In this document: piece by piece, positions 17,843 through 58,304 of the stretch
Layout: every line of letters starts with the position of its first letter
Position numbering within the stretch: the stretch's first letter is position 1
IMG/VR virus record: IMGVR_UViG_3300046508_000016
Location: 1-60,638 of that record
Direction: 5' to 3' (one strand)
Source of the DNA: a virus
Taxonomy: Duplodnaviria; Caudoviricetes
DNA: 60,638 bases
The notes under the pieces: generated by a model
Told to the model about the DNA's origin: nothing
Databases searched by the model: none
Seen by the model: only the letters and a program-made list of their open reading frames with translations
Translations under genes and position numbers: made by a program

Positions 17843-17844
17843 GA

Positions 17845-18734: not shown

Positions 18735-18905
18735 CTATTCCTTCGCTACCTTTGCCGTGTCAAACTTTTGTAGTTGTTTTTCAATTCTCTGAATCGCCAC
18801 GCAGTTCGCCGCCACCGTCGCCGATTGCTGAATGTTCAACGCCCATGTCACAAAAATGTGAACCACCAGCAGCGTCAGCAGTACGAATGACATGCGGGAA
18901 CTCAT
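18735..18905 (-). CDS. Small membrane protein with coiled-coil tail
   Basis: One TM segment; start overlaps upstream stop. Confidence 0.55.
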   Translation of the reverse strand: MSSRMSFVLLTLLVVHIFVTWALNIQQSATVAANCVAIQRIEKQLQKFDTAKVAKE

Positions 18906-21153: not shown

Positions 21154-21475
21154 TGGTTGGCTCCTTTTGTGGATCGGGAAATGGCGGATAGTGAATCAAT
21201 CCACTCAAGTCTCTCTGGATCATCTCGATCCCGCACGCGCAACGCTCAAGAGCCGCACAAACGCGGCCAAACTCCACGGGCTGCATCGCGTCCTTCACAT
21301 TTGCTGGCTTAGTCAGGAACTTCCACCAAACGCTGCCGCGAAACTCCGCGATCATCTCGCCAATCGCCACCGCATCGGCCTTGACCGCATCGGCCGCCAC
21401 AGCGAAAGCGTCCAGGGCCTCGGGAAGCGGTCGCTTCTCTTGCTCGTGATCGTGTTCGCCAAGCAAGCCGTTCAT
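21146..21475 (-). CDS. Hypothetical helical protein
   Basis: TGATG coupling to the metacaspase stop; GGAGG SD. Confidence 0.6.
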   Translation of the reverse strand: MNGLLGEHDHEQEKRPLPEALDAFAVAADAVKADAVAIGEMIAEFRGSVWWKFLTKPANVKDAMQPVEFGRVCAALERCACGIEMIQRDLSGLIHYPPFPDPQKEPTNG

Positions 21476-22299
21476 CAGCAACCTCCTTGCAAAAATCCGT
21501 GAGCGATATGATCGTCCTGCCCTCGTAACTGCGGCTCTTGGTCGTAGTCGTCGATTTTCAGGTCGGCATTCACCCGCTCGATAACTTTGGTCAACGGGAC
21601 GGACAGGCCGTCTTTCTTCAAGCGGGCCAGCAGGTAGTGAGACAGCGCCCCGCAGTAGGCTCCGTCGATGAAGGCGTCGGCTGACGTTTGATTTCTCTTG
21701 CAGCCTCCAATAAATGCACCGTGGAGATGCTCGGGCATGGCTCGCCATAGGCTCGGAGACTCGATTCCCTGAGCCTTTGCCGTTTCAACGCGCCATGCCA
21801 TATCTGCGGGCATCGGATATTGACGGGCTACGCGGTAATCAGGGCCAGGAAGCGAGCAATTCACTACCCTAGCCAAATCGGCGTGGCACGAATCGCTGAC
21901 AAAAACGAACTCAACACCTTCGGGGATGTTGGCAAACATCTCTGCAAATGCCGAGGTCGTAATTGCGGTCTCCTCTGTCCAAGCGAAGTCGTAGGGACAA
22001 AAGCAAGCATCATTGGAAATCATGTCGCCGTTCTTATCTCGCAACGGCAACAAGGTCCCGTGACCAGATTCCCAGTAAAGCAACTTGTCACCTGAGGCGG
22101 CTCCGCCAACCAACCATCGCAGACGATCTTTGATCGTGACCGCTGTTGCACGCTCATCGGTCAGAAGGTGGACATCCCTGACTTCAAAGACGCCCTTATC
22201 AACCATCAGCCGAGAAGCGTTAGCAATGTCGTTGATACATCCCCTGAGAGGTGCGGATGGATAGGTGTTGATACCAACGGCGAGAAACTTATTAGCCAT
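21475..22299 (-). CDS. Metacaspase (peptidase C14 / caspase family)
   Basis: VGINTY...LRGCIND, SGHG (catalytic His), DSCH (catalytic Cys), GC...QTSAD...GALS...QEPQL p10-like region. Confidence 0.93.
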   Translation of the reverse strand: MANKFLAVGINTYPSAPLRGCINDIANASRLMVDKGVFEVRDVHLLTDERATAVTIKDRLRWLVGGAASGDKLLYWESGHGTLLPLRDKNGDMISNDACFCPYDFAWTEETAITTSAFAEMFANIPEGVEFVFVSDSCHADLARVVNCSLPGPDYRVARQYPMPADMAWRVETAKAQGIESPSLWRAMPEHLHGAFIGGCKRNQTSADAFIDGAYCGALSHYLLARLKKDGLSVPLTKVIERVNADLKIDDYDQEPQLRGQDDHIAHGFLQGGC

Positions 22300-24969: not shown

Positions 24970-25487
24970 TCACGCTACATGCTTCCAACTTTTTCGGTGA
25001 ATGACTTCGCAGACAACACCCTCAGAGACACAATACAGTTCTGCAATTTCTCGCTGACAAAACCAGCCAGTCGCAGCAAGTTTTCTAATTTCTTGAACCT
25101 TGATGGAATTCAGCTTTCCAGTGTAGTTTGGGTTTTTTTCTCCCCTCCGAACCACGTACATTTGTGGATGCGTCACAGAACCATGCGGGCGATTTTTGGC
25201 AATCCGATCCGCTGCGTTGTCTTTCTTGGTCCCCAAAAACAAATGGTCTGGATTGCAGCATGGTGGATTATCGCAACGATGCACACACAGAGACCTCTCG
25301 GTATCTCTCCGTTCTTTACGGTGAACATCAAACGATGTGCGTACCACCTGCGACGCCCAAACACACCATTCTTTCCATATCCAACAACTCCATACTCATT
25401 GGCATGCGCTCCCTGCCACTCCCAGCAACCCGTTTCCTGGTTGATCTTGATTCGCTGTAAAATCCGGTCTATGATATTCACGTTCAA
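24970..25487 (-). pseudogene. HNH homing endonuclease, frameshifted
   Basis: N-half (...GEIPRGLCVC) and C-half (HRCDNPPCCNPDHLFLGT...WKHVA) lie in different frames; shift at the TG run near 25280-25289. Confidence 0.85.
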
Positions 25488-25511
25488 GCCTCCTCATTAG
25501 GTTTGGGCCAC
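25432..25511. repeat. 80-bp direct repeat, copy 2 (HNH 5' end and RBS)
   Basis: Identical to 22770-22849. Confidence 0.95.
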
Positions 25512-25619
25512 GCCTCCGGTGATTCACGTCACGCGGAGGTTTTGTTTTGTCCTATCGACGCCGCAAGCCGGCCGAGGGTGCATCCTGTGCAACCTCGCCG
25601 GCAATCCTAGCGGTGTTTC

Positions 25620-34233: not shown

Positions 34234-34416
34234 TCACGATAATGGCGGCTCACCGACACATGGATCGCCTCCGCATGTCGGGCACGGTTTATACATTGAC
34301 CCTAGATATGATTCGTAATCGTCCGTTGTTACCTTTCCGCTCCCGCGACAGGTTGGGCAGTCCCTTTCTGGGTCGTAGTAGTCCTCCCAGCAGTCGTCAT
34401 CCCGGTCGTCGCTCAT
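34234..34416 (-). CDS. Small DnaJ-type Zn-finger protein
   Basis: CPTCRGSG...CPTCGG. Confidence 0.6.
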   Translation of the reverse strand: MSDDRDDDCWEDYYDPERDCPTCRGSGKVTTDDYESYLGSMYKPCPTCGGDPCVGEPPLS

Positions 34417-34733
34417 AGCGGTATATCCTCAATCGCTTCCAGCCTAGCCTTCAGCCATTCAATCCACGCATCCCAGCGTGCAAGCGTGGCGCGGTGTTTT
34501 GTCGCCCTACGCTCCGCTTCTTCTTTACTGAGACAGCCAAGATGCCGTTCACATCGCGTCACCCATGCCGCCGTCTTATTTCTCTGCCCCTTGAGATAAC
34601 TCAATAATGCAAGCGGGTCGCTCGGGAGAAACTGCTTTCTTCCACATGTCGGACAGTAAGGCGTCGTAACCTTACGTCCGCAGCAATTTGGCTTATCGAG
34701 GTCTTCCATGCCTTTCCCTCCCGCAAAACTCAC
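34413..34733 (-). CDS. Zn-ribbon hypothetical protein
   Basis: CC...YCPTCG; start may be the internal Met. Confidence 0.55.
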   Translation of the reverse strand: MSFAGGKGMEDLDKPNCCGRKVTTPYCPTCGRKQFLPSDPLALLSYLKGQRNKTAAWVTRCERHLGCLSKEEAERRATKHRATLARWDAWIEWLKARLEAIEDIPL

Positions 34734-37903: not shown

Positions 37904-38160
37904 GTAGCACCACCTTCCTTCGCCTCGATTTCCAGCAGGGCAATCACCGCAATCAGAGCCTTCGCGTGGGCCTTGTGTGCGGCTTCCAGGTTTTCAAGAT
38001 TCGTGGCCTCAACCGTCATGGCGTTGCCACCGTTGCCGCCAGTGGCCTCAGCCAAACGAATCCGCAGCAGTTGGCATTTGCGTTCCTTCCCGTATTCCGC
38101 CTTGGCGTCCGCCAGTTCCTTCTGCGCCGCCTCAAGCGTCCACACTTTTCCCGTCAGCAT
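37900..38160 (-). CDS. Small coiled-coil hypothetical protein
   Basis: Coupled overlap, purine SD. Confidence 0.6.
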   Translation of the reverse strand: MLTGKVWTLEAAQKELADAKAEYGKERKCQLLRIRLAEATGGNGGNAMTVEATNLENLEAAHKAHAKALIAVIALLEIEAKEGGAT

Positions 38161-38416
38161 GATTTTCCCCTTTCATTCTTTGTTTCAGTTTCTCAACAGC
38201 CGCCTCGATCTTCGGCAGCATCTCCGCAATCAGTTCCGTCTCGCAAGTCTCAACAGTGGTTCCCACGAGGAACTTGTTGAAGCTGATTTCCACGTTGCCC
38301 CACCATTTTTGATACCCGTCGTCGCGGCTATGCAACCGAAGCCGCAGTCCATCGCAAACGTCCAGCGTGAATATCTCCCGCTGAATCACGGGCTTTTCGC
38401 TTTTCCACTCACTCAT
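38132..38416 (-). CDS. Hypothetical protein
   Basis: AAAGGGA SD. Confidence 0.6.
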   Translation of the reverse strand: MSEWKSEKPVIQREIFTLDVCDGLRLRLHSRDDGYQKWWGNVEISFNKFLVGTTVETCETELIAEMLPKIEAAVEKLKQRMKGENHADGKSVDA

Positions 38417-38444
38417 CGCTATCCCTTTCGTCTCGCAGTGTTCG

Positions 38445-38858
38445 CTAATCGCGCGACTTGAAAGCCACGTTCACGGAAAACCGATATTCGGATTGAAGTG
38501 ATCCAGCCAACCCTCCAATGAACGCTTTAACGAGTGGCCCCTTCTTCGTTTTCAATTGGCGCAGAAACTCGTCCTGCAACGTCTCCGTGTTGGCTTCTAC
38601 CCATTTCTGGACGGCGACCTTTGCCGCCCGCTGGATGGCGTCGTTGCAAAGCCACTCCAGAAACGGAACGTCCGAGGAATATCCCTGATTGGATGGCATT
38701 CCTTTGCTGTCAACTTTCTGACTCAATACCCGAGCAACAGCGTTTGCCACAAGATTCTCGTAGCCTCGCAATGCTCCCGCGATAGCTTCGGTGATCTTCG
38801 CGTCGATGATTGGCCTTATGAGCCCATCGGACACCTTTACGTCTACTGAATCAGCCAT
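38445..38858 (-). CDS. Hypothetical protein
   Basis: Start MADSVD after AAGGGA. Confidence 0.7.
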   Translation of the reverse strand: MADSVDVKVSDGLIRPIIDAKITEAIAGALRGYENLVANAVARVLSQKVDSKGMPSNQGYSSDVPFLEWLCNDAIQRAAKVAVQKWVEANTETLQDEFLRQLKTKKGPLVKAFIGGLAGSLQSEYRFSVNVAFKSRD

Positions 38859-39186
38859 CGTATTCCCTTTCCTGTGGTTCGCAGTGTTCCTCGAAAATGT
38901 GATCGCGCAGAGACTCTTCGACTTCTGAAAACGCATCCAACTGCAACAGCATTGGCCACAGCAGTTTATGATCATGCTTGCCGCACGTTACGACCATCGA
39001 CGTGATTACGATGTCACAAAACTCACATTCCGGTGGCGAACCTGGATAGCCGTTCCCGTTTGGGGTTCGGCAAATCATTGGCTCGCCAGGCGTAACGCGG
39101 TAATTCACTGTGCCCTCGATCGATAGCTCCTGACTATTGCCGATAAACAACACCCAGTCATGTTCGCCACTGATGATGCCCTTCAT
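38851..39186 (-). CDS. Hypothetical protein
   Basis: GYPGSPPECE motif common in phage early genes. Confidence 0.65.
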   Translation of the reverse strand: MKGIISGEHDWVLFIGNSQELSIEGTVNYRVTPGEPMICRTPNGNGYPGSPPECEFCDIVITSMVVTCGKHDHKLLWPMLLQLDAFSEVEESLRDHIFEEHCEPQEREYDG

Positions 39187-39233
39187 TCCTTCACTCCCAA
39201 AATCTTCGCCACCGCCTCAACAACGATAAGTGC

Positions 39234-39482
39234 CTACGGGCGTTCGCGTGGCCTGGAGGCGTTCCAGGAGTTGCGCGACAAGACCAACAGTAGGTAACCG
39301 ACCCACTTCCACTCGTCGCGTTTCTTTTGCGACTCCCGACACGCGACACCCATCGCAGCGTCAACGCCTTCGATCATTCGTCGAATTGTCTCCGGGCTCT
39401 GCGACTCATCGACAGCCCGCCGCAACTCTTCCACGGCGTTTCGTAGTTCGGCTAGGCGGTCGGCTGGGGGTGTAGACATCAC
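39234..39482 (-). CDS. Small hypothetical protein
   Basis: AAGGAG SD, coupled overlap. Confidence 0.5.
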   Translation of the reverse strand: MMSTPPADRLAELRNAVEELRRAVDESQSPETIRRMIEGVDAAMGVACRESQKKRDEWKWVGYLLLVLSRNSWNASRPRERP

Positions 39483-39675
39483 TTTTGCTCCTTTGGTTTA
39501 TCTGGTGTCGTCTTGTGGCAATAGCATCGGCACGGCGTCTTATTGCCCGCTACGACGCTACACCCCTTCCGCGTTGCTCCAGGTGCGGCGCAACAGCAAC
39601 TAGTCTGCTTAACCTCCCCGCCTACGATCCGCTTCACCTCAGTCCAGTAGTCATGCACCTTTCGCCGCGTGACCA

Positions 39676-39927
39676 TCAGTTCCTCTCCCCATTCCGAAAC
39701 TCCTGATGAATCATCGCCAACGCCTCGGTCAGTTTCTCCGATGCCGTTTCTGCCAATGACTTGATTACGTGCTCGTTGCCATACGCGACGGCTTGCACGA
39801 TCAAATCCTGGTAACGGATCGACTCCGCGACCAACGCCGTGATGCACGCCCTTGGCGTCTGCGAGCCGCGACCGAACAGGCCATCGAGAATGTCATCATC
39901 GACGCCGCAAGAGGTTTGTCGGCTCAT
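39676..39927 (-). CDS. Small hypothetical protein
   Basis: Coupled overlap, GGAG SD. Confidence 0.55.
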   Translation of the reverse strand: MSRQTSCGVDDDILDGLFGRGSQTPRACITALVAESIRYQDLIVQAVAYGNEHVIKSLAETASEKLTEALAMIHQEFRNGERN

Positions 39928-40241
39928 GGTTGGGCTCCGGTGGCAACTTGCGCCTTGATTGAGTGCTCATAGGCATCGTAGTCAAAGCCCTTGGCACATT
40001 CGACGAAAAGCGGGTTGTCTCGTTCTGTCCAAACAACCAATCCGTGATTCATGCCCTTACACATATCGCCACCGATTTCTAAGCCTGCCGCTGTGCGAAT
40101 GGCTTTGATGAGATCACTTCGTTCCCAGTCAGCGCCGAGCATACATAACGGCGCGCTTCTAAGCGTATGGATGTTCTCGCCATCGGGATCAAGCATCGCA
40201 ATTGCCTGATCTGGTGTTAGTAGACATTTGTCGTCGCTCAT
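39924..40241 (-). CDS. Hypothetical protein
   Basis: AIAML...IHT...GADW motif; coupled to csrA stop. Confidence 0.7.
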   Translation of the reverse strand: MSDDKCLLTPDQAIAMLDPDGENIHTLRSAPLCMLGADWERSDLIKAIRTAAGLEIGGDMCKGMNHGLVVWTERDNPLFVECAKGFDYDAYEHSIKAQVATGAQP

Positions 40242-40513
40242 GGCATCACCTTCTTTCCGACCAACTGGTTGTCCTGCCAGTCAAATAGCTCTTCCAACTC
40301 TGCAAGACTCAAGCCAGCGTCAATGGCGTTGCGGACTTCTGCAATCCGCTCTTTGCCGTGGATCGCTTCAAAGACTTCCGCGCGGTGAACGGAGACATCT
40401 CTCGGACATTCGATTCCGAGTCGCACCTTGTTACCGCGAATCTCAACCACGGTCAGCACAATACCGTGGCCAATGACGATCTGCTGATTCTTTTCTCTAC
40501 TAAGTACCAACAT
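40238..40513 (-). CDS. csrA: Carbon storage regulator CsrA/RsmA RNA-binding protein with C-terminal extension
   Basis: MLVLSREKNQQIVIG..I.LTVVEIRGNKVRLGI.CP.DV.VHRAEV; AGGAGG SD. Confidence 0.95.
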   Translation of the reverse strand: MLVLSREKNQQIVIGHGIVLTVVEIRGNKVRLGIECPRDVSVHRAEVFEAIHGKERIAEVRNAIDAGLSLAELEELFDWQDNQLVGKKVMP

Positions 40514-40630
40514 CGTAAAACCTCCTGTTTCTTCCGGGGTCCACTTCCTACGTCAGCCGGGGCTGTCCTGTCTATGAGCCTCCAAGGCTCTCCGTCCGCC
40601 GCCTCCGAGGCGTGCGAGTCCTATCCTGCC
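40514..40630 (-). promoter_or_regulatory. GGA-dense CsrA-binding leader or CsrB-like RNA
   Basis: 11 GGA trinucleotides on the minus strand between 40523 and 40626, some in hairpin loops. Confidence 0.75.
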
Positions 40631-40685
40631 ACGTTTTCGAGCGCGGCGGCTGGTTCTTCGTCGGGTTCGTTTGCTGTGGTTGCGG

Positions 40686-41033
40686 TTACGTCTGAGCGGT
40701 CGCCTTCTTCGCTCGCTGCCCCTCTTCAATCTTGTCGGCTGCCTCGTCAAGTGCCGGATCGTAGGCGACAAGCTCGTTATCAGCGAACAACCATAATCCA
40801 TGATCGGTCACCACGCAGCCATCGACGTTCTGCCGAACGTGTCGCATCCACAGATCGCCAGCGTCTTTCAGGATGCGAATGAAATACGAGGTGGCCACAC
40901 CGTTATCATTCGCGTGAATCCGTATACCCTGAACGCACCCGAGGAGTGGGCGTCCGTTTTGCGGCATTTGCACTTGAGCCAAAAGAGCCACGATGTCGCC
41001 AATGTCGAACTTGGTTTTGGCTTCGATTTTCAT
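40686..41033 (-). CDS. Hypothetical protein (SH3-like N-terminus)
   Basis: MKIEAKTKFDIGDIV; AAGGAG SD. Confidence 0.7.
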   Translation of the reverse strand: MKIEAKTKFDIGDIVALLAQVQMPQNGRPLLGCVQGIRIHANDNGVATSYFIRILKDAGDLWMRHVRQNVDGCVVTDHGLWLFADNELVAYDPALDEAADKIEEGQRAKKATAQT

Positions 41034-41077
41034 GCGTTACTCCTTAATAAGATGCGATTGCTTTTTGTAAACGTCAG

Positions 41078-41180
41078 CGGAGCGTGCCGGAATTGCACCG
41101 ACTGTCCTATTCTGTCCATCACCGAAAGGCGAATTGCCTCTCCGTGTTATGTGCGTTTCACTGTCAACGCCGACGCTCCG
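41078..41180 (-). ncRNA. tRNA-like structured RNA (non-canonical)
   Basis: 8-bp closing stem CGGAGCGU/ACGCUCCG, D-like arm GCGUU-GACAGUGA-AACGC, T-like arm GUCGG-UGCAAUU-CCGGC, long middle arm, no encoded CCA. Confidence 0.65.
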
Positions 41181-41383
41181 TTGGACCGGGCTCGTTGCAG
41201 AGTCCCCTCCCAGCCCTGATTCCTCGGGGATCATCTGATGCAACGAAGGAGCTAGCCAAAGTAAAAGCTCGGAGCGATGCCTGTAGCCGGCACTTGCGCA
41301 CCGCCCCGACGTGAAAACCTCCGACGCCAACCCCACGCAAGCCATTGCTGTTGGTGCGGAGGGGGAAAGGTGAAAATGAAACA

Positions 41384-41998
41384 TCATAATGGCAACTCCA
41401 TTTGCGTCGTCGGCGTAAACGAAAATATCCCCTGCAACTCCACGGGATACGCAGCGCGTAACCGACCATTAGCTATCGCAAGAAGTTCCGATGCCGACAA
41501 TGAATCCAAATCAACAAACCTTTTGCGCGGCCAATAGAGCATGTGCGACTGATGGGACATTCCCTGGATTGGTTCGCCCAAGGCTGCCAGCGTTTCTACT
41601 AGCAAGCTACCCGACCATTCTCGCGGCACCGTATCGCGGTATAGTTCGATGAGAGCAATCCCGGCGTTTTTTCGACCGGCCGCCGCCACACGCTTGTAAT
41701 GTTCCCAGTTCGGCTTGTCAATTCCATGCCGTTCCTGCCCAGTCTTTCTCCAAATGACGCTCTGGCTCTTTACCTTCGAGTCAACGTAGGCAATTCCGAC
41801 CAAATCGAAATCAGGCAAAATCATCCTCTCCTCACCTTCCATCATGGGCGCGCCGCCGTTTTCGATTTTGCAGAGCGGTATGTACTGAATCTTGGATGCG
41901 ATAAATACCTTTGACCAGAACGCCTCTCCGAAGCGTCCGAGCCATGGCTCCGGTGCCTCCCGAAACTTCTCTTGTGCTGCGCGTTCTTCTTCACTCAT
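41384..41998 (-). CDS. PD-(D/E)xK nuclease-like protein
   Basis: G..GE helix, LPDF, VDSKVK; translationally coupled to the methyltransferase. Confidence 0.6.
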   Translation of the reverse strand: MSEEERAAQEKFREAPEPWLGRFGEAFWSKVFIASKIQYIPLCKIENGGAPMMEGEERMILPDFDLVGIAYVDSKVKSQSVIWRKTGQERHGIDKPNWEHYKRVAAAGRKNAGIALIELYRDTVPREWSGSLLVETLAALGEPIQGMSHQSHMLYWPRKRFVDLDSLSASELLAIANGRLRAAYPVELQGIFSFTPTTQMELPL

Positions 41999-43014
41999 GA
42001 AATCAACATTCTGTCCACGTTGTTTCCGTACACGGTCCAGCCAGCAGCTTCCTTGCGCCCGTACAGTTCCAAAAAAGGACCGTCGCTCATGTCCTCGATG
42101 ATCTTGCGGAAGATGTCCGGCTTCTCACTGTGCTTTGTTCTGTTTGCCTCAACGCAACTAACCCAACTCATTTGGGATTCGCTCCAGGTCGTCATTCCCC
42201 CTCTTGTTGCGATCATCAAATGTTCGTGAGACAAACGAACGTAGTTTCCGATTCCCATTTGCGGCTTCACCCAGACCATATTGCTCTTGTAAGTGAATCC
42301 CCATGCGTCGATAACTTCAAATGACTCCCGCAAAAAACCGGAAGTTGTCCAGAGATATAGCAGACAACAATCATCAGACAGCTCTGCAATTGGTTCCGCA
42401 CAAATCTCGGGAACCGTCATTGTCGGATAGTGGTCGTCTGTTGCTGCTCGCGTTCCCTGATTTCCGTATTGCCAAGGCGGGTCGGCGTAGATGCAGCGAT
42501 ACTTCTTTTCATCCTCGATTAGAACTTTTAGATCGCCGACAACTCCCGACGGGCTCTCGTCGATTTTCACTTGTTTTGCCGCCTTCCGCTTCACCAATTT
42601 TCTCAAACCGCTCGCCGTCAAGTCTCGGTCGCCGCTCTCAACAATTCCGGTAAGCCACGTCTGGTATTCTTCTTCTGGCACGCTGGCCTCTTGTTGGTAG
42701 CGGGAGGATTGGGAACGGGTTAGGCCGATGGACTCAAGGGTATATGTCGCAGCCTGCGACGTTTGTTCTGGTCTGCCACGTTCAGCCAGTTCCCCGCGTT
42801 CCTTCATTAATTGCAACGTGTCCCCAGCCTTGCGTCTCGCGTCAAGCATTATTGTCGAGGCGGCATTACACGCTTCACGCCCCATCCCGGCGGCGTCCGC
42901 AAAGTCCCTGGCTCGCTGGGCGAGGTTTTCAACGTGGAGAATATCTTCGATTGTTGTCGCTTCCGCCAACATCGTCCGTGCTCGGGAGATTGGCGCGAGG
43001 GCACTAGACTTCAT
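41995..43014 (-). CDS. MT-A70 family N6-adenine methyltransferase
   Basis: IYADPPW, HYPTM, LYLW, WGF.YK...WVK, E.L, HSEKP, LELYGR. Confidence 0.95.
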   Translation of the reverse strand: MKSSALAPISRARTMLAEATTIEDILHVENLAQRARDFADAAGMGREACNAASTIMLDARRKAGDTLQLMKERGELAERGRPEQTSQAATYTLESIGLTRSQSSRYQQEASVPEEEYQTWLTGIVESGDRDLTASGLRKLVKRKAAKQVKIDESPSGVVGDLKVLIEDEKKYRCIYADPPWQYGNQGTRAATDDHYPTMTVPEICAEPIAELSDDCCLLYLWTTSGFLRESFEVIDAWGFTYKSNMVWVKPQMGIGNYVRLSHEHLMIATRGGMTTWSESQMSWVSCVEANRTKHSEKPDIFRKIIEDMSDGPFLELYGRKEAAGWTVYGNNVDRMLIS

Positions 43015-43518: not shown

Positions 43519-45990
43519 TCACAATCTGTCACTACTCGGACTCGTCAGTAGATTGCAGTACCGCGCTAGCACGCCGCCCACGTTCTTTTTGAACAGGATG
43601 TGAAGCGTGGCGGGGTCGAGCGTGCTCCACGTTTCGGACATTGGCAGGAATCCGCCCAGCCACCTCTCTACGCCATAGCGGTTTCTTTCGTGGCGATCCC
43701 ATCCGCGCCGATCCCGAATGTCTCCGCGGAACCAAAAGAACGTGCCCGAGTAGTGCCACTTGCACCGACCGCACTTTTGACCTAACAGCGTGCCGAAAGA
43801 AGCCTTCGTTTTCAGTACCTCAATGGCGGCCCTACTGTTTTGCATGACATGCGTGTACATCAATTCGGCCCACGCCTTACCGAGCGGTTGTCGTTGCAGC
43901 ATGGCGGCTTTCGAGTGACCGTAGCAGACTCGCTCATCCGCTTCGACTTCTGGCAGCAGCAGATTAAAAAACGGTGTCACCTCCCCATCGGCCGTGTTCG
44001 GGGTGCGAAAGAACTTTGTGTCGGCGGGGACAAACGGTCGCAATCGCTCTTCGATTTCTTCTGCCGGCGCGAATCCGTCGCCCGTAACGATGTTCATTCG
44101 CACTTTGCTAAACTGGTGCAAGTACCGCGGCAGTCGTTGTAAGTGAAAGTCGATCATTTCTTGACGCGGCAACCAAGGGGCGAAGTGATAGAGGAGGGTT
44201 GCCGGCGGATACTGATACGGCGGGAGCCCCTCCGGTTCGCCACGCTTGCGGAACACTGCCAACCCCAATCGCGTGCCGATGGTGGTGAGATATTCCAGGT
44301 TCGGTTCTGAGCCGCCCCGCAACTCGTCAAGCAACTGACCTACCTGCCCTGGCCCCGTGCAAGCCACCGCATCGTGGAACACAAGCAACCCACCGGGTGC
44401 GAGGTACGGCAGAACGGTCGTCACGTTCTTTCGCTCCGTCTCGTATCGGTGGTCGGTATCAACGATCATCAGGTCGTAGAGTTCGTTCTGTTCTGCCAAC
44501 CACGGGCCGGAGTGCTCAGCCATGCCGACGTACTCGCCCGCGACGTGCGGTAAGCGAAACGGTCGCCAGTGGGCTTGCGGGTGTTTGTTGTCGTCGATGA
44601 TTCGCACTGACCGACAAACCACCTCGTCATCTAGCAGTTTGGCGAATCCGCCGGCCGCGCTCCCAACCTCCAAAAGCCGAGGATGGCTCAGGTGTCGCTT
44701 GGCCAGCGTGATAAACTCGGCCGCCTCTTCCGGCGACTGCTGCAAGTAGTACGCTCCCTGGTACAATCCGCCGAACGTGCGAAGGTCATCCGAACCAGCC
44801 ATATAGATTCTCAGCACAAGGTCACTTTCGGCAGTGGTCACGGGTCGATTCTCCGGCAGTTCATATTGTGATGGCTCTGGAAACAGTTCGCCCAACACCA
44901 GCATAAACGCGGCGGTCATCGCGTTGTCGTTGTAGCCAAGGTGTCTTCGGCCGGCTAGCATTTTCCTCAAAGCGTCCGCATTCTTCACCGCCTTGTACAG
45001 CGTTGTCTTGTCGCCGTTAAGAGACGCGCGGAACACAGATGGACTCAGGTTTAGCGCGAGCGTATTGACGGTCAGCCCTTGTTTGGTGTCGTAGGGTGCA
45101 TCCTTCACGGCCGCGAGAAACTCAATCCGTGAATGCGGCTGAAAGGTGTGGGTGTCGAAGTTCTCGGGCGTCACGCCCTTGCTTGCTACATACCCGGCTG
45201 TCGCGTGAAGTCGTTTTTCCCACTTGTTTTTGTTCGGTGTTCTCGCCACGGCTGAGAATGTTGCCGGCATGGTCGCTAGGTCGGTGGGCGCCAACAAACA
45301 CTGGTCATCAGAAGCGAAGATGAAGCGTTCGCTGATACCGCTTTCGCAAGCCAGCCTGAGCTTGTTGATGATGTCGGCGTCTTTGCAGGCGTGGCCGCCG
45401 ACGTGCGGAATGTTGGTCACGCCCGTCAGCCAATGCGGCTTGTGGCCGACAACGAAGATTCTCCCGAGATTCTTCGCGTACTTTTGCAGAGAACGAAGTG
45501 AATAGCGAAGTTCGATGTCATCGTGGCGGCTCTCCGACGATAGGGTGTACACCACGTCAACGGGTTCGACTATCGAACCAGGCCACTTGTCGAGCGGGCA
45601 ATCTTCCGTCGCCATCCTGATTTTGTTGAACAGAGCGATGCCGAGATTTACGCGGCAGCCGCACTGTTTGCATCGACCGTTGACGTTCTCTTCGCACGGT
45701 TTGCAGTATTTGATGTAGATGTGTTCAACCAACTCTTGGCTGCGAACTGGTCGGCCGTCCTTGACCCATTTGACTAGTGCAACCGTGTAGTTTTTGGCGT
45801 CGTCCCACGTGATGCCCAGCGATTCCGCTCCGCTTTTTGCTAAACGTTCACGTCGCTCTTGCTCCATCCTGGAGTCGCAGACGCGATATAGTTGCGACAT
45901 CTTCCTACCGGGCGGGTGCTCCATCCATTCTCCGCAGACTCTACACACGGAAACGGTAGGGGATTCAGTTGGCTCGAAGTCACAGTGCAT
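43519..45990 (-). CDS. Multidomain Zn-finger + Stealth (sugar-phosphate transferase) + methyltransferase + glycosyltransferase-like protein
   Basis: CKPC...CKQCGC...K.RM..E.CP..KW; DVVYT...ELRYSLRSL...GRIFVVG.KP.WL (Stealth CR1/CR2); LEVGS..GG, DTDH.YE, FHD; YGHSK...HYSGTFFW. Confidence 0.82.
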   Translation of the reverse strand: MHCDFEPTESPTVSVCRVCGEWMEHPPGRKMSQLYRVCDSRMEQERRERLAKSGAESLGITWDDAKNYTVALVKWVKDGRPVRSQELVEHIYIKYCKPCEENVNGRCKQCGCRVNLGIALFNKIRMATEDCPLDKWPGSIVEPVDVVYTLSSESRHDDIELRYSLRSLQKYAKNLGRIFVVGHKPHWLTGVTNIPHVGGHACKDADIINKLRLACESGISERFIFASDDQCLLAPTDLATMPATFSAVARTPNKNKWEKRLHATAGYVASKGVTPENFDTHTFQPHSRIEFLAAVKDAPYDTKQGLTVNTLALNLSPSVFRASLNGDKTTLYKAVKNADALRKMLAGRRHLGYNDNAMTAAFMLVLGELFPEPSQYELPENRPVTTAESDLVLRIYMAGSDDLRTFGGLYQGAYYLQQSPEEAAEFITLAKRHLSHPRLLEVGSAAGGFAKLLDDEVVCRSVRIIDDNKHPQAHWRPFRLPHVAGEYVGMAEHSGPWLAEQNELYDLMIVDTDHRYETERKNVTTVLPYLAPGGLLVFHDAVACTGPGQVGQLLDELRGGSEPNLEYLTTIGTRLGLAVFRKRGEPEGLPPYQYPPATLLYHFAPWLPRQEMIDFHLQRLPRYLHQFSKVRMNIVTGDGFAPAEEIEERLRPFVPADTKFFRTPNTADGEVTPFFNLLLPEVEADERVCYGHSKAAMLQRQPLGKAWAELMYTHVMQNSRAAIEVLKTKASFGTLLGQKCGRCKWHYSGTFFWFRGDIRDRRGWDRHERNRYGVERWLGGFLPMSETWSTLDPATLHILFKKNVGGVLARYCNLLTSPSSDRL

Positions 45991-53438: not shown

Positions 53439-55547
53439 TCACGTAGTTCCTGGTGGTGGAGGAAGGTGCATAGCCCGTGCGCCGCCCGCGGCACCCATAT
53501 AGGACGCTGGCAGAACATTGGCACCCGGCAATGGCGTAGGCGAACCGCCTTGTCCGCCCTGTTGAGGAGGCATCGGTTGCCCATCTGGTCCGACTTGCTG
53601 CTGTTGTGCGGCTTGCTGCGCCGCCACAAACTTTTGCAGAGCTTCGCGGACGCTGGCAATCACAGGCTCGGTAGGCATTTCGTAGGCGTCACCCACCATG
53701 CGCACTAGAGCCAAGTACGGCTCGTAATCCTGCATCGAGGTGCAGATCGAAAAGACCTGTTGCCCAAGCATCGTGTACAACTGCTGGGCGTTCTCTTGTT
53801 GAAGCTGCTTGTTGCGTCTTCGACCCGAGCCCGCCTCGATGGTGTATTCGCACTCTGCGGCGGCAATCCAAGGATCGTTGGTGGTTACACCGGACTCTTC
53901 GTTCATCCAAAACGATGTAAGCGCCCCGTAGACTGGATTGGGAATGTCGCCTTCCGCTTCCTTGCCAGTCACGGGGTCCATGATCTTCTCGCCAAACAGG
54001 AAGGATACAGTTTCGGCGGAAAGCAACAGGCGAGCGGCAATGGCTTCGCCTTCAGAAACTTCGCTACCCCATGCCTCTACTTTGTCAGCATACTCGTCAG
54101 GCCGACGGCTCAAGCCTGCTTGTCGAATACCGGAAGCCTTTGCCGACCGTTCCTGTGTCTGCGGAGAAGCGCCTGCCCACGACTCGTCCAACCCGGTCAT
54201 CTCGCGGAATGCCGAGTCGGCTAACTGCAAGATTGTGAACACGTCCTTGTTGGTCTCTGGGAATTGGATAAAGTCGAGATATTCCTTGAGGGCCTTGCCG
54301 ACATCGGCCTCGGAAATGGCTACGACTGGCATCTGCTCACGTCCCTTGAGTGCCGTCTTTACTGCCTCCTCAAGGGCTTGCGACGTGACAGTGACAATCT
54401 GGCCGATCTTCTCGGCGCGGACCATTAGCCCCTGATAGATCGTGTCGATGAACCGCAGCAGCGGCAATGCTGGCTCAAGAATCGGCCGTGGCCAAGGACA
54501 TCCAACTTGTGGCTTGAAGTCGATACACTTGACTGGCCACGGATTTGTGGTGTTGCCGTAGGTGGCGATCGGCCAAGCGAGCAGTCCCTTGAGTTCCTGA
54601 AGCAGCGCGGCAGGATTCTCGGCAAACGTGTTGATTTTCTCGGAGTCCATACCGAGAGGATGGTCTACTCCCGGCATAATCGCAAAGTGAACGTAGAGAC
54701 CAATCTGTTCAAAGGCCGTAGCCAACGCTCCATCGCTAAGCATGTCGTCGGGAGCGTTTACTAACTTGTCGCCGATGCCCATTACGCTCCAGATTTCGTA
54801 GTAGGTGGCGAGGTCGGAGTTGTTGGTTGTGTCGTGATTGGCAGAAGCCGAGGCCCGCGACATCGCCGTCTGGGCGTTGGCGCGGATGTTCTTTACATCT
54901 TCACTCCAAAGGCTGGCAATCTTCCACGAAACCTGTTGACGCTTGCGGATGATGAATCCCGCCTCTCGCAGCTTGCGACAGTCGCTATCAATTAGCAGGT
55001 TGTCTACCGAGTCAGCCATGCTGCCGGGAACGTCATCGACAGGACCATCTACCATTTCCGTCCACAAACAACCACGTCCCTTTGCTAACGCTTCCCGAAC
55101 AGAAACCTCTCCCTCCTCAGTCAGACCATAGACCTTTGGAAACCACTGCAATGCCGCCTGTAATTCGTAGGACAGCATCGTATCCTTCTTCCGCTGCCCC
55201 TCCTGCATTGACACAATCTCAGGAACCGCGTTCTCCAACTCGGGCGGAATCTGCGGACGGCCGGGCTGCACCAACCTATTCGGAACGCGGGCAAAGACAT
55301 ACGGCGTCAGTGTGTCCACGAACAACTGCGTGTAGTTGACCACCGTAACGTAGTCGGCGGGCATGTCTTCAAGCGGAATGGCGTCTCTCACTTCCACGCG
55401 ATGGTACTGCTTGCCGACATAGCGCATAATCTCATCGGCGGCATCGCCAAAGTCGCGTGCCTTTGCTTCTTCGCATAGCTTGATCTGGTTATCCCAGAGC
55501 GATGCGATCTTGCCTAGCAGTTCCGAAAGGGGTGAGTCTGCCATCAT
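53439..55547 (-). CDS. Portal protein
   Basis: 702 aa downstream of TerL; helical, TGL.E..G...RSA..S.I motif, Gln/Pro-rich C-tail. Confidence 0.8.
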   Translation of the reverse strand: MMADSPLSELLGKIASLWDNQIKLCEEAKARDFGDAADEIMRYVGKQYHRVEVRDAIPLEDMPADYVTVVNYTQLFVDTLTPYVFARVPNRLVQPGRPQIPPELENAVPEIVSMQEGQRKKDTMLSYELQAALQWFPKVYGLTEEGEVSVREALAKGRGCLWTEMVDGPVDDVPGSMADSVDNLLIDSDCRKLREAGFIIRKRQQVSWKIASLWSEDVKNIRANAQTAMSRASASANHDTTNNSDLATYYEIWSVMGIGDKLVNAPDDMLSDGALATAFEQIGLYVHFAIMPGVDHPLGMDSEKINTFAENPAALLQELKGLLAWPIATYGNTTNPWPVKCIDFKPQVGCPWPRPILEPALPLLRFIDTIYQGLMVRAEKIGQIVTVTSQALEEAVKTALKGREQMPVVAISEADVGKALKEYLDFIQFPETNKDVFTILQLADSAFREMTGLDESWAGASPQTQERSAKASGIRQAGLSRRPDEYADKVEAWGSEVSEGEAIAARLLLSAETVSFLFGEKIMDPVTGKEAEGDIPNPVYGALTSFWMNEESGVTTNDPWIAAAECEYTIEAGSGRRRNKQLQQENAQQLYTMLGQQVFSICTSMQDYEPYLALVRMVGDAYEMPTEPVIASVREALQKFVAAQQAAQQQQVGPDGQPMPPQQGGQGGSPTPLPGANVLPASYMGAAGGARAMHLPPPPGTT

Positions 55548-55945: not shown

Positions 55946-57688
55946 TTAGCGGAGGGCGTATTCTCGGCGGCGTTGTTCACGCCGCTTGGATTGTTTGGAA
56001 ACGAAAACGTCGAAGGCTGTAATCTTTTTCTCCTCAACTATTTCCTCCACCTCGGGAGTGAAGTAAGAGAGACTTCCCGCGGCGGCGTATTCGAGGTCGT
56101 CGAGAAAGTCTTGCGGAACCTTGAGGTTCTTAAGCCTCTTAGTAGGATTCTTCGGGTCGGTCTGCGCCCGGCGAATCTGCTTGTCCAGTTCCGGCAAGAT
56201 GCCACGCATGACGCGAAGTTCTGACGTGCCAGCGAATGCACCGCTGCCACGTACTTCCATCTTGGATTGCAGTGCCAGCGTGCGGGCATCAACGTCGTTG
56301 CTGCCTGGGATAAAGCCTTCCATCTGGCCGAGGCGGCGAAACTGTACGTCTAGTTCCTTGAGAGCTTCGCTGTATTCGTGGGCGACGGTGTGAATCTCGC
56401 GGCCCTGGAGCTTGCACGATCCCATCTGCTGGTCGATTACGCGGGCCTCAAACTTCACTCCGTTTTGTCGCTCCTTTACCTTGGCTGCCCATTCGCGTGC
56501 CGTCATGCCAGTCACGTCGAAACCGTCGTAGACCGTCAAGTATTGTTCGTCTGGGTCTATGGCGATAAACAGCGTTGTGCAATGATTGATGGCTGGATCG
56601 AGAATCACATAGCGGGCGAACACTCGCGGGTCGATTTCAAACGGTTCGCAGCCGTGGCCGCTACCGTTCTCAGAATCGCCCATCGGGTTGTATGTGCCGT
56701 AGATGCGGCGAACGTGACTGGCTGGAATGCCGTGGTATCGCGTTGCCCGTTCTTCCTCCCGTAAGCCTTGTAAGAACTCGGCGCGGGCTTCGGGTGTGAA
56801 ATACGGGTTGTCCTCAATCAAAAACACAAACTGCCTGACGAAATCAGATTCAGGCTCGGCTAGGGCTTTGTCTCGCAGTTCTCCGAGGTCAACATTTGAC
56901 ACCTGCGAAGTTGCCGACCAAATGCCCTTCGGGCGATGCTTAATGGTTTCGTGCAGTCGCGTCAAACCGCGATGGGCTTCGGTGTAGAACTCGGTCGATG
57001 GCATTTCTTCGTCGAATCGCACAAACGAGTAGTGCGATCCAAGTTCTGGATCACCGGCGGCGGATTGCCACAGGCTATGCCACCCATTGTTTAGGCGAAT
57101 GGTGCGAGGAACTTCCGGCAAGTCAAAAGAGATGTGAGCGACCATTCGGGGTGGAATGAGCGGCGGAGCGTCTTTCCACTTCTCGCGGTAGGCTTCATCG
57201 TATTCCTGCAAGCGATTGGGGTGGTTGCGGTCCCAGCGAACTGTACGATATAGGCCGGTATGCTCATCTTGGATAATTTTGAACGCACCTTCACAAAACA
57301 TCGACCGATAAATCTGCGATAGATTCTTTCTTTCTAGGCCGACAAACAAGGCGTATCCATTGGTCTTGTCGTACTTGTCGTATGGATCAGTCCCGGTCAT
57401 TGCGCGGGAGTTTTCTGCTGAGGCCGAAAAAGATTTGGTGCTGCGATTGCCGCCGTCAGCGAGACGCCATACGGCATTGCAGGCGTGAAATTGTTCCGCC
57501 AAGTAGCTGGCTGGTTCATAGAATCTTAAGCCTTCGTACTCGCGCGACAGTAGCCGCTTGGCAAGTGCGAGACGTTCGGCATACAGGGAAGACAACGATG
57601 GCAAGGCAACCGGCCTTTGTGGGTGTGCCTCCCGCATCTGCTCCTCAAGAGCCTTTCGCATGTCGGCGGTGATCGCGGGCGAAATCAT
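55946..57688 (-). CDS. terL: Terminase large subunit
   Basis: Walker A GGNRSTKS, Walker B VRFDEE, SAT coupling motif, DNPY, nuclease ILDP...D..D.LEY. Confidence 0.93.
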   Translation of the reverse strand: MISPAITADMRKALEEQMREAHPQRPVALPSLSSLYAERLALAKRLLSREYEGLRFYEPASYLAEQFHACNAVWRLADGGNRSTKSFSASAENSRAMTGTDPYDKYDKTNGYALFVGLERKNLSQIYRSMFCEGAFKIIQDEHTGLYRTVRWDRNHPNRLQEYDEAYREKWKDAPPLIPPRMVAHISFDLPEVPRTIRLNNGWHSLWQSAAGDPELGSHYSFVRFDEEMPSTEFYTEAHRGLTRLHETIKHRPKGIWSATSQVSNVDLGELRDKALAEPESDFVRQFVFLIEDNPYFTPEARAEFLQGLREEERATRYHGIPASHVRRIYGTYNPMGDSENGSGHGCEPFEIDPRVFARYVILDPAINHCTTLFIAIDPDEQYLTVYDGFDVTGMTAREWAAKVKERQNGVKFEARVIDQQMGSCKLQGREIHTVAHEYSEALKELDVQFRRLGQMEGFIPGSNDVDARTLALQSKMEVRGSGAFAGTSELRVMRGILPELDKQIRRAQTDPKNPTKRLKNLKVPQDFLDDLEYAAAGSLSYFTPEVEEIVEEKKITAFDVFVSKQSKRREQRRREYALR

Positions 57689-58005
57689 TTTTGGTCGCTT
57701 GGCTCTTGTTGGCAAATCTGCTGATCCAGCGCCTTCAGTCGCAGCAACACCTGCTCATCGTTCAGGAGTTCGCTTTGGTTGTCGGCCTCGCCGTACTGTC
57801 CCATCAACTTCAGCACGTTGTTCATCAGGTTAATCTTGGACGCCACGGGAACATCGTCGTCCATGACGATCTGTCCGAGAATCTTGCCCATCGCTTCCTC
57901 GCCATTCACCTCCGCGACAAAGCCGCGCAACACACGCTGCAAGGAAAGCGTCACCTCTCCTTTAGCGTCGGCGAGTTGGGCAACTATTTGCTCTGCGCTG
58001 GGCAT
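57685..58005 (-). CDS. Putative terminase small subunit
   Basis: Helical 106-aa gene translationally coupled to TerL. Confidence 0.55.
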   Translation of the reverse strand: MPSAEQIVAQLADAKGEVTLSLQRVLRGFVAEVNGEEAMGKILGQIVMDDDVPVASKINLMNNVLKLMGQYGEADNQSELLNDEQVLLRLKALDQQICQQEPSDQK

Positions 58006-58304
58006 TGAATGCGTGCCTCCGTAGCGTCGATAGTGGCAACGATTCGTTCCCGTCCGTCGCCGGGCTTCCAGTGGTGTGGCGTCAGCGTCCCAGCTACGTC
58101 AACGAGATCGCCTTGCGATGCGTTGGCCACTACGCCAGCTAGTTCCTTGCGACACACCACGGCGAACTCCTCTCCATTCACTAGCAGCATCACGCGGCAG
58201 ATAGGCTCTCCGAGGGCGTGGGATAGATTAGGCGATCGCTTGACGGTGCCGACGATTCGGCAGGTTGCGAGGTGATGCGGCGAATATCCAGGGCGCTCAG
58301 CCAT
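57984..58304 (-). CDS. Single-stranded DNA-binding (OB-fold) protein
   Basis: IVGTV...P, VVC...A, GDLV.V.G.L...W...G; lacks acidic tail. Confidence 0.7.
   Translation of the reverse strand: MAERPGYSPHHLATCRIVGTVKRSPNLSHALGEPICRVMLLVNGEEFAVVCRKELAGVVANASQGDLVDVAGTLTPHHWKPGDGRERIVATIDATEARIQCPAQSK

What the first reader, a model, noticed from the sequence alone, without database searches (positions are those of the whole stretch)
40238..40630. Phage-encoded Csr circuit: csrA behind a leader with 11 GGA motifs
Seen: the ~105 nt upstream of csrA carry 11 GGA on the coding strand (roughly 2 expected by chance), including CAGGAUA, CAGGACA, loop-presented CGCC-UCGGA-GGCG and GAGCC-UUGGA-GGCUC, and the SD itself. 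Known: CsrA/RsmA dimers bind GGA in hairpin loops, and CsrB/RsmZ sponges consist of such repeats. Inference: the phage carries a self-contained module, either a multivalent autoregulatory leader or a processed CsrB-like sponge that titrates phage and host CsrA. The CsrA also has a ~40-aa extra helical C-terminal extension.
Basis: partly seen in the sequence, partly recalled or inferred. Interest (0 to 1): 0.8.

Follow-up and report, generated by a model that had tools for sequence, protein, structure and literature searches.

The report
GGA-packed leader before a phage csrA
A tailed phage carries a gene for the RNA-binding regulator CsrA, and the untranslated stretch just in front of that gene is crowded with the short motif CsrA binds, which most likely lets the protein throttle its own production.

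Summary
csrA (40238-40513, minus strand, 91 aa) follows a 172-nt non-coding gap, and 11 GGA lie within 104 nt of it. The strand background predicts 2.3 per 117 nt. This is the densest GGA window on either strand of the 60.6-kb record, and it sits in front of the record's only CsrA-family match. The excess survives shuffles that keep local composition (5 of 5000 reach 11).

One GGA lies in the Shine-Dalgarno, so the layout fits a multi-site CsrA operator. E. coli csrA has four such sites in its own leader. Nothing supports a separate CsrB-like small RNA: no Rfam match, no terminator between array and gene, no RNA data.

Three results weaken the structural and comparative case:
- Loop presentation of GGA (3 of 11) is no better than chance.
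- The whole leader folds no better than shuffles.
- No close relative of this phage exists, so conservation is untestable. Of 176 other csrA loci, none has a comparable non-coding array (median 3 in the two main sets).

The C-terminal tail is real but only partly helical in a medium-confidence model.

Verdict: a probable hypervalent autoregulatory csrA leader, a new variant of a known kind, of moderate interest and unproven without binding data.

The parts
40238..40513 (-). csrA, 91 aa: CsrA core in residues 1-51, plus a C-terminal tail of 30-40 aa
   Evidence: Pfam PF02599 E 1.7e-22. phrog_9500 'CsrA-like regulator' E 1.7e-16. PDB 1y00 E. coli CsrA E 3e-11 over residues 1-54. L2, L4, R6, V42, R44 and E46 are invariant in a 54-sequence alignment.
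40514..40685 (-). 172-nt non-coding gap (leader or intercistronic region) upstream of csrA
   Evidence: Lies between the stop of ORF 40686-41033 and the csrA ATG. The only minus-strand ORF over it is an out-of-frame Arg-rich 82-aa frame that overlaps the upstream gene. It is the densest GGA gap of 38.
40523..40626 (-). Array of 11 GGA in 104 nt; spacings 5, 15, 9, 4, 10, 15, 20, 6, 7 and 10 nt
   Evidence: Six of the 11 have an A one or two bases 5' of the GGA (AGGA x5, ACGGA x1). Six of the 11 have a central G with unpaired probability above 0.5.
40600..40612 (-). Hairpin 1: CGCC-UCGGA-GGCG (or CGCCU-CGG-AGGCG)
   Evidence: Copy of the 11-nt unit GCCUYGGAGGC (D1).
40576..40590 (-). Hairpin 2: GAGCC-UUGGA-GGCUC; second copy of GCCUYGGAGGC, 23 nt from the first
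   Evidence: The two units can instead pair with each other, at -19.7 kcal/mol and z -2.49 (2 of 200 shuffles), putting GGAs 40597 and 40593 in a 12-nt loop. The 11-nt repeat itself is not significant: it appears in 176 of 1000 shuffles.
40517..40531 (-). Shine-Dalgarno region: GAAAC-AGGAG-GUUUU, a weak hairpin with the SD GGA in the loop; alternatively the SD pairs with CCCC at 40536-40539
   Evidence: hairpin enumeration; the SD Gs are paired in the ensemble; the local fold is -6.7 kcal/mol with z 0.43, so it is not distinctive.
40628..40647 (-). GGA-free hairpin GCCGCG-CUCGAAAA-CGUGGC at the 5' edge of the array, preceded by a C/A-rich spacer without GGA (40648-40685)
   Evidence: Function unknown. 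No sigma-70-type promoter was found on either strand in 39800-41500.
39924..40241 (-). 105-aa ORF whose ATG overlaps the csrA stop (ATGA): probably translationally coupled; family unknown
   Evidence: No Pfam or PHROG match. Two relatives exist: P0122 at 55% and L007 at 42%, the latter not next to a csrA. AF2 mean pLDDT 72.7. No PDB fold match at E<=1e-3.
40686..41033 (-). Upstream 115-aa ORF of unknown family
   Evidence: No Pfam or PHROG match. No viral relative found.

Best explanation
The 172-nt region in front of the phage csrA is a multi-site CsrA operator. CsrA dimers, from the phage and probably also from the host (whose RNA-binding residues are the same), bind several of the 11 GGA sites, including the one inside the Shine-Dalgarno. 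This blocks ribosome loading, so csrA translation falls as free CsrA rises: negative feedback with high avidity.

Shown:
- The gene is a CsrA with intact RNA-binding residues.
- The GGA excess is real and uniquely placed.
- One GGA is in the SD.
- Pairs of sites lie at distances a dimer can bridge.

Inferred:
- That CsrA binds here at all.
- The sign of regulation. Repression is the default when the SD is a site, but relief of the weak CCCC-SD pairing could in principle activate.
- That the region is transcribed with csrA.
For: (1) Co-location. The single densest GGA window in 2 x 60,638 nt lies directly upstream of the record's only CsrA-family match: 11 GGA against a mean of 2.34, with the next non-coding cluster far lower.

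(2) The excess is specific to GGA and is not just G-richness. Only 5 of 5000 dinucleotide shuffles and 2 of 5000 mononucleotide shuffles reach 11.

(3) Empirical background. In 176 other csrA loci (520,748 nt, both strands), all 7 locus-strands with 11 or more GGA per 117 nt lie in open frames of at least 112 aa. No non-coding stretch reaches 11.

(4) The SD (ACAGGAGG, 7 nt before the ATG) contains a GGA and can sit in a 5-nt loop. [quoted passage not shown]

(5) Two near-identical GGA units lie 23 nt apart. This is close to the 18-nt optimum and to the 21-nt flaA spacing quoted in PMC4894983 (passage read).

(6) The CsrA keeps L2, L4, R6, V42, R44 and E46. R44 is the residue described as essential for GGA recognition (PMC7366521, passage read).

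(7) A milder version of the pattern is seen in the closest core homologues. L173 and L175 (72-73% identity) have 6 GGA per 117 nt against a background of 1.7, in a leader conserved between them. L097 (Gemmataceae) has 8. Of csrA genes surveyed, 92-96% have a GGA within 25 nt of the start.
Against: - No binding or expression data exist: no RNA run holds the stretch.
- The phage has no close relative, so nothing can be said from covariation or conservation.
- Across 159 csrA loci the region -117..-21 is barely enriched: viral 2.40 against 2.19 background, genomes 2.25 against 1.53.
- Four isolated csrA phages have only 1-3 GGA and short gaps.
- The only viral CsrA with a similar tail (L024) has 3. 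A dense array is therefore not a general property of csrA leaders.
- Structural support is weak. The whole-leader fold has z 0.23. GGA in hairpin loops is 3 of 11, against 3.5 expected in GGA-preserving shuffles (P 0.70 for stems of 4 bp or more; P 0.17 for 5 bp or more). The 11-nt repeat occurs in 17.6% of shuffles.
- Only 6 of 11 sites have the preferred A before GGA.
- Several sites are 4-7 nt apart and cannot all be occupied at once.
- No promoter was identified, so 'leader' could equally be an intercistronic spacer.
Confidence: 0.55

Rival explanations
1. The array is primarily a decoy. As part of the phage mRNA, or as a fragment processed from it, it soaks up host CsrA early in infection. 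It would act as an mRNA-borne sponge like the C. jejuni flaA or Salmonella fimAICDHF leaders, or like a CsrB/RsmZ-type RNA. Control of csrA translation would be secondary.
For: The site density, one GGA per 9.5 nt over 104 nt, is higher than I recall for sponge RNAs; those figures are recalled, not from a call. mRNA leaders that titrate CsrA are documented (PMC4894983, passages read). The two palindromic units can form either two small GGA hairpins or one long hairpin with two GGAs in its loop, at z -2.49 for that 46-nt piece. The closest host-type csrA genes are mostly not next to fliW: 4 of 80 loci have it. The antagonist of CsrA in that lineage is therefore open.
Against: No Rfam family (CsrB, CsrC, RsmX/Y/Z and the rest) matches at E<=10. 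There is no terminator-like site on the minus strand between array and csrA, and no promoter was found. No RNA data exist. Loop presentation is at chance. A decoy placed in cis to the gene for the very protein it would titrate is more simply read as an operator. The z -2.49 comes from a sub-window chosen after seeing the sequence.
Confidence: 0.15
2. The GGA richness has nothing to do with CsrA. It could be a G/A-rich, T-poor spacer that arose by chance or drift. It could serve another purpose, such as repeated SD-like GGAGG ribosome stand-by sites or a site for another RNA- or DNA-binding protein. It could also be a remnant of decayed coding sequence.
For: The local composition is skewed (38% G, 12% T), which alone raises the expected count to 4-6. 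GGAGG occurs three times. The array is not conserved in other csrA leaders. The structural features are at chance level. The feature was picked by eye from a 60-kb window, so there is some selection effect.
Against: Even with dinucleotide content fixed, only 5 of 5000 shuffles reach 11. Of 17 GG dinucleotides in the 117 nt, 11 are followed by A and none by G (read's sequence). The densest window of the whole record coincides with its only CsrA-family match: 1 of 38 gaps if placement were random. No non-coding stretch in 520 kb of other csrA loci reaches this density. No plausible ORF covers it.
Confidence: 0.25

Closest known systems
E. coli csrA leader (translational autorepression; Yakhnin et al. 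2011 as summarised in review PMC7652899, passage read)
   Same: GGA sites lie upstream of csrA itself, and one overlaps the Shine-Dalgarno. The expected outcome is negative feedback on CsrA synthesis.
   Different: E. coli has four sites; here there are 11 GGA in 104 nt. This one is on a phage and precedes a CsrA with a long C-terminal tail. The two leaders share no sequence similarity, and binding here is untested.
C. jejuni flaA mRNA leader (both target and sponge of CsrA; PMC4894983, passages read)
   Same: A protein-coding mRNA leader with GGA hairpins about 21-23 nt apart that could both be repressed by CsrA and titrate it, in an organism without Csr sRNAs.
   Different: flaA has two GGA hexaloops and probably binds one dimer. 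Here there are 11 GGA, only 3 of them in potential loops, and the downstream gene is csrA rather than flagellin.
CsrB/CsrC/RsmX/Y/Z sponge sRNAs (Rfam families)
   Same: A high density of GGA motifs, some in small hairpins and some in linkers.
   Different: No covariance-model match. No own terminator or promoter was detected. The array is contiguous with an ORF. It comes from a probable Planctomycetota phage rather than from Gammaproteobacteria.
Phage- and plasmid-borne CsrA/Rsm homologues (F116-type RsmM and the others surveyed in PMC7366521; plasmid RsmQ, PMC9928087, abstract seen in the search listing only)
   Same: A CsrA homologue carried by a mobile element. Some, such as F116p24 at 123 aa, also have extended C-termini.
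   Different: Identity is at most 45%, and the tails are unrelated. Their upstream gaps are short, with 1-3 GGA. No GGA-array leader is mentioned in the passages I read.

Membership tests
CsrA/RsmA protein family (PF02599) | Profile match above the curated cut-off | tested here: met
   79.6 bits against a cut-off of 27, E 1.7e-22, covering 51 of 53 profile positions. Also matches the PHROG CsrA-like regulator and PDB CsrA chains.
CsrA/RsmA protein family (PF02599) | Conserved RNA-binding residues (N-terminal L2/L4/R6 and the V42-R44-E46 region; R44 is essential for GGA recognition) | tested here: met
   All are invariant in the 54-sequence alignment that includes the window protein. The role of R44 is taken from PMC7366521.
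CsrA/RsmA protein family (PF02599) | Interleaved homodimer | not testable with these tools
The monomer AF2 model shows the expected strands 11-35 and helix from residue 45.
CsrA-repressed mRNA leader (autoregulatory csrA leader type) | A GGA site overlapping the Shine-Dalgarno or start region | tested here: met
   ACAGGAGG lies 7 nt before the ATG, and the GGA at 40525-40523 can sit in the loop of GAAAC-AGGAG-GUUUU.
CsrA-repressed mRNA leader (autoregulatory csrA leader type) | At least one further GGA at a distance a dimer can bridge | tested here: met
   Ten further GGA lie 10-101 nt upstream. The hairpin pair is 23 nt apart. The 18-nt optimum is quoted in PMC4894983.
CsrA-repressed mRNA leader (autoregulatory csrA leader type) | CsrA binds and represses translation | not testable with these tools
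   Needs EMSA, toeprinting or a reporter. No RNA data are available.
CsrA-repressed mRNA leader (autoregulatory csrA leader type) | Sites conserved in orthologous leaders | tested here: inconclusive
   No orthologous leader exists in the collections. Distant csrA genes show a median of 3 GGA per 117 nt.
Csr/Rsm sponge sRNA (CsrB, CsrC, RsmX/Y/Z etc.) | Match to a described family's covariance model | tested here: not met
   Rfam 15 at E<=10 over 38000-43000 gave no hit in the leader.
Csr/Rsm sponge sRNA (CsrB, CsrC, RsmX/Y/Z etc.) | Independent transcription unit ending in a terminator | tested here: not met
   No minus-strand terminator-like site or sigma-70-type promoter in 39800-41500. The scan covers only consensus types, and the phage encodes its own sigma factor, so a promoter could have been missed.
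Csr/Rsm sponge sRNA (CsrB, CsrC, RsmX/Y/Z etc.) | Many GGA, mostly displayed in hairpin loops | tested here: inconclusive
   The number is met (11). Display is not: 3 of 11 are in potential loops, no more than in GGA-preserving shuffles.

The most novel reading that the evidence does not exclude
The array is a phage-borne CsrA decoy built into an mRNA. It would be the first sponge-like CsrA antagonist RNA outside the Proteobacteria, operating in a Planctomycetota (Gemmataceae-type) host lineage. In that lineage most csrA genes are not paired with fliW and no antagonist is known. Together with a tail-bearing phage CsrA that may escape host control, it would let the phage first strip the host's CsrA and then substitute its own.
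Probability: 0.1. Interest if true: 0.75.

Novelty: new variant of a known kind. Interest (0 to 1): 0.45.

Why it matters
CsrA is one of the most widespread bacterial translational regulators. Phages and plasmids are known to carry copies, but how such copies are themselves controlled is essentially unstudied.

If this leader binds CsrA, it would be the most site-dense CsrA operator I know of. That comparison is from recall, apart from the four E. coli sites cited. It would show that a phage brings its own feedback control along with the regulator.

It would also give a first experimental handle on Csr regulation in Planctomycetota. I found no paper on that subject (none of the 10 papers listed from 628 holding at least 2 of the 3 terms is about CsrA in Planctomycetes).

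If the array is only a chance G/A-rich spacer, nothing follows.

Tried and rejected
- Searches for syntenic relatives using both neighbouring genes in viral contigs. The downstream ORF has a 42% relative (L007) with no csrA beside it. The upstream ORF has none.
- L006, a supposed match to the tail, is a spurious pattern hit in an unrelated frame.
- tblastn matches said to cover residues 1-80 or more (L089, L113, L115, L139, L074, L041) run through stops or low-complexity sequence. Those proteins are 57-72 aa.
- L074, with 13 GGA upstream, is a coding GDGYGH tandem repeat and not an analogue.
- The other GGA-rich spots of the window (38035-38202, 34312-34479, 45817-45942, 18913-19057, 58006-58189, 25348-25619) lie in open frames.
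- Tandem Repeats Finder found nothing in 40400-40800.
- Sequencing runs: no RNA holder is listed. The single DNA run may be the source sample.
- Complex prediction (CsrA dimer with the coupled 105-aa protein) was not available, and nothing was folded.
- A Foldseek search of the 105-aa protein's model against the PDB gave no match at E<=1e-3.
- The idea that the 105-aa protein is a FliW-like partner was dropped for lack of evidence. The phage has no FliW match.
- SD/anti-SD (CCCC) pairing as a riboregulatory hairpin is weak: -6.7 kcal/mol, z 0.43.
- Supplementary tables of PMC7366521, which list the csrA-positive phages, were not opened.

Full report
**What is there.** The window is an IMG/VR virus record of 60,638 bp, linear, with a CheckV completeness estimate of 79%. 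Nearly all of its ORFs are on the minus strand.

It is a tailed phage. ORF 55946-57715 resembles large terminases (ESM Atlas feature score 0.98, structural TM 0.58-0.66). ORF 53439-55547 resembles P22/SU10-type portals (0.97, TM up to 0.77). Neither is recognised by Pfam or PHROGs. Those libraries do find an Erf-type recombinase, a replication initiator, MT-A70 and other methyltransferases, a sigma-70-like factor, a caspase-like peptidase and two radical-SAM proteins.

The ORF at 40238-40513 (minus strand, 91 aa) is a CsrA:
- Pfam PF02599, E 1.7e-22, over residues 1-51.
- phrog_9500 'CsrA-like regulator'.
- E. coli CsrA structure 1y00, E 3e-11, over residues 1-54.

The residues that make the RNA-binding surface (L2, L4, R6, V42, R44, E46) are invariant in an alignment of 54 homologues that includes it. 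It is the only CsrA-family match in the record, and the record has no FliW match.

**The observation.** Between the stop of the upstream 115-aa ORF (40686) and the csrA ATG (40513) lie 172 non-coding bases. The distal 55 nt are C/A-rich with no GGA, and they end in a GGA-free hairpin (40647-40628). The proximal 104 nt (40626-40523) hold 11 GGA.

- The minus strand averages 2.34 GGA per 117 nt and the plus strand 1.32.
- The maximum over every 117-nt window of both strands is this one. The runners-up, with 9 each, lie in small coding frames.
- The region is G-rich and T-poor, which raises the expected count to 4.2 (mononucleotide shuffles) or 5.8 (dinucleotide shuffles). Only 2 and 5 of 5000 shuffles respectively reach 11.
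- Among 38 minus-strand gaps it is the densest, at 6.4 per 100 nt against a mean of 2.17. The next candidates I inspected are unannotated ORFs.

**Anatomy.**
- Six of the 11 sites have an A one or two bases before the GGA (CAGGA x3, UAGGA x2, ACGGA).
- Three sites can be shown in loops of stems of at least 4 bp: CGCC-UCGGA-GGCG, GAGCC-UUGGA-GGCUC, and the Shine-Dalgarno hairpin GAAAC-AGGAG-GUUUU.
- The first two are copies of an 11-nt unit, GCCUYGGAGGC, 23 nt apart.
- Because each unit is self-complementary, the two can also pair with each other. That gives -19.7 kcal/mol and z -2.49 (2 of 200 shuffles) for that 46-nt piece, with GGAs 40597 and 40593 in the loop.

These structural points must be discounted:
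- The whole leader folds no better than shuffles (z 0.23; z 0.68 for the 126-nt piece).
- GGA-preserving shuffles display as many GGA in loops as the real sequence: mean 3.5, P 0.70. For stems of at least 5 bp the mean is 1.37 and P is 0.17.
- An 11-nt repeat with one mismatch appears in 176 of 1000 such shuffles.
- The z -2.49 belongs to a sub-window chosen after inspection.
- No Rfam family matches the leader at E<=10.
- No sigma-70-type promoter was found on either strand and no terminator-like site on the minus strand in 39800-41500. A phage with its own sigma factor may use promoters the scan cannot see.

**Comparative evidence.** The phage has no close relative in any collection searched.
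- The nearest CsrA proteins are 60-75% identical over the core only. Where named, they come from Planctomycetota, often Gemmataceae. The host assignment is my inference from that alone.
- The neighbouring genes lead to no syntenic phage.
- A metagenome scan found no protein with the same tail.

- In the 117 nt upstream of csrA, 80 viral loci have a mean of 3.7 and a median of 3 GGA.
- The 79 genome loci with enough upstream sequence (of 80 fetched) have a mean of 3.4 and a median of 3. Some loci duplicate one contig.
- With the SD zone removed (-117..-21), the means are 2.40 against a background of 2.19, and 2.25 against 1.53. The window has 9.
- Only L074 exceeds the window, and its 'leader' is a coding GDGYGH repeat.
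- Thirteen usable metagenome loci have 2-7.
- Four isolated phages (F116, a Vibrio phage, a Providencia phage, BR153a) have 2, 1, 3 and 2, with short gaps.

Scanning all 176 loci on both strands (520,748 nt), every one of the 7 locus-strands with a window of 11 or more lies in an open frame of at least 112 aa. Only two windows of 9 or more look non-coding, in L153 and L013.

Two things follow. A dense non-coding GGA array is rare, which supports significance here. It is also not a conserved attribute of csrA leaders, so there is no comparative support. A milder enrichment does occur in the closest core homologues: L173 and L175 have 6 against a background of 1.7 in a shared leader, and L097 has 8. 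Of all csrA genes surveyed, 92-96% have a GGA within 25 nt of the start.

**Mechanism.** The best-supported reading is a multi-site CsrA operator that gives translational autorepression.
- Here one GGA is in the SD, and ten more lie 10-101 nt upstream. The spacings include 23 nt between the twin units, near the 18-nt optimum quoted in PMC4894983.
- Host CsrA, with the same binding residues, should bind as well. The element would therefore sense total free CsrA.

I put this at 0.55. The steps not shown are binding, the sign of regulation and co-transcription.

The decoy or sponge reading (0.15) has real precedents in mRNA leaders: flaA and fimAICDHF (PMC4894983). It is attractive because most Planctomycetota-type csrA loci lack an adjacent fliW, found in 4 of 80 loci. 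However, no feature specific to a separate sRNA was found.

The reading that the array is unrelated to CsrA (0.25) is kept alive by three things: the skewed composition, the chance-level structure statistics and the lack of conservation.

**The tail.** The protein is 91 aa, against 61 for E. coli CsrA and about 72 for the nearest Planctomycetota homologues. An AlphaFold2 model (54-sequence alignment, mean pLDDT 71) continues the canonical helix to residue 65, adds a short helix at 70-75, and leaves the rest unstructured, at block pLDDT 45-72.

A related tail occurs in one viral CsrA, L024: 50% identity over 82 aligned positions including the tail. The linker of a tandem CsrA-CsrA protein, P0011, also resembles it. 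Extended, partly helical C-termini in mobile-element Rsm proteins have been described (PMC7366521), and FliW docks on such an extension in Bacillus. What this tail binds is unknown.

The next ORF (39924-40241, 105 aa) overlaps the csrA stop by ATGA and is conserved in two other sequences. It has no family or fold match. The complex prediction that might have tested a partnership was unavailable.

**Novelty and verdict.** Phage-borne csrA is known: 30 of 2517 phage genomes in PMC7366521, and 81 records in the phage collection here. CsrA autoregulation through its own leader is also known.

What is new is the degree (11 sites in 104 nt, sponge-like density) and the setting (a probable Planctomycetota phage, with a tail-bearing CsrA). 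My searches found no paper on CsrA in Planctomycetes or on GGA-array leaders of phage csrA (listings plus the passages of PMC7366521). This is a limited search of open-access text.

I rate it a new variant of a known kind, with interest 0.45. The statistical association is convincing. Function remains inferred, and the more exciting sponge reading has no specific support.

Noticed in passing
Proteins P0002-P0011; also locus L176:794-1177: The best-scoring 'homologues' are 122-156-aa proteins made of two complete CsrA domains in tandem, joined by a 20-45-aa linker. They may be single-chain CsrA 'dimers', and some come from long Planctomycetota-type contigs. A phrase search for tandem or fused CsrA found no paper describing them.
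   Followed up: partly
Genome loci L089-L168: Only 4 of 80 Planctomycetota-type csrA loci (L110, L150, L159, L168) have fliW immediately upstream. Gemmataceae-type csrA is instead followed by a CoA_binding_2 gene, and several Pirellulales ones by ferrochelatase. How CsrA is antagonised in these lineages is open.
   Followed up: partly
L153:264-380 (+), about 1.1 kb upstream of csrA in a Planctomycetota MAG: A non-coding-looking stretch with 9 GGA per 117 nt sits directly after a terminator-like hairpin. It is a candidate GGA-rich RNA near a chromosomal csrA.
   Followed up: no
L173 and L175 (metagenome contigs), 117 nt upstream of csrA; L097 (Gemmataceae MAG): The closest CsrA cores (72-73% identity) share a conserved leader with 6 GGA (background 1.7). 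L097 has 8 in 117 nt and 13 in 220 nt of G-rich, non-coding-looking sequence.
   Followed up: partly
window 17159-17977 (-), 21475-22299 (-), 9289-10365 (-) and 6105-7028 (-): The phage encodes a sigma-70-like factor (regions 2 and 4), a caspase-family peptidase and two radical-SAM proteins.
   Followed up: no
window 18913-19057 (-): The 3' end of ORF 18902-19450 carries a loose repeat of CAGGAUCAAC-like units (8 GGA per 117 nt), translating as GQDQR-type repeats.
   Followed up: no
window 58006-58189 (-) and 25348-25619 (-): 'Gaps' left by simple ORF calling contain clear small open frames, for example MLLVNGEEFAVVCRKEL... and VNIIDRILQRIKINQETGCWEW.... Short genes are under-called in this record.
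   Followed up: no
window 53439-55547 (-) and 55946-57715 (-): Portal and large terminase are invisible to Pfam and PHROGs and recognisable only through ESM Atlas features and structure. This is a very divergent tailed phage, and the one DNA run that holds it is labelled peat metagenome.
   Followed up: partly
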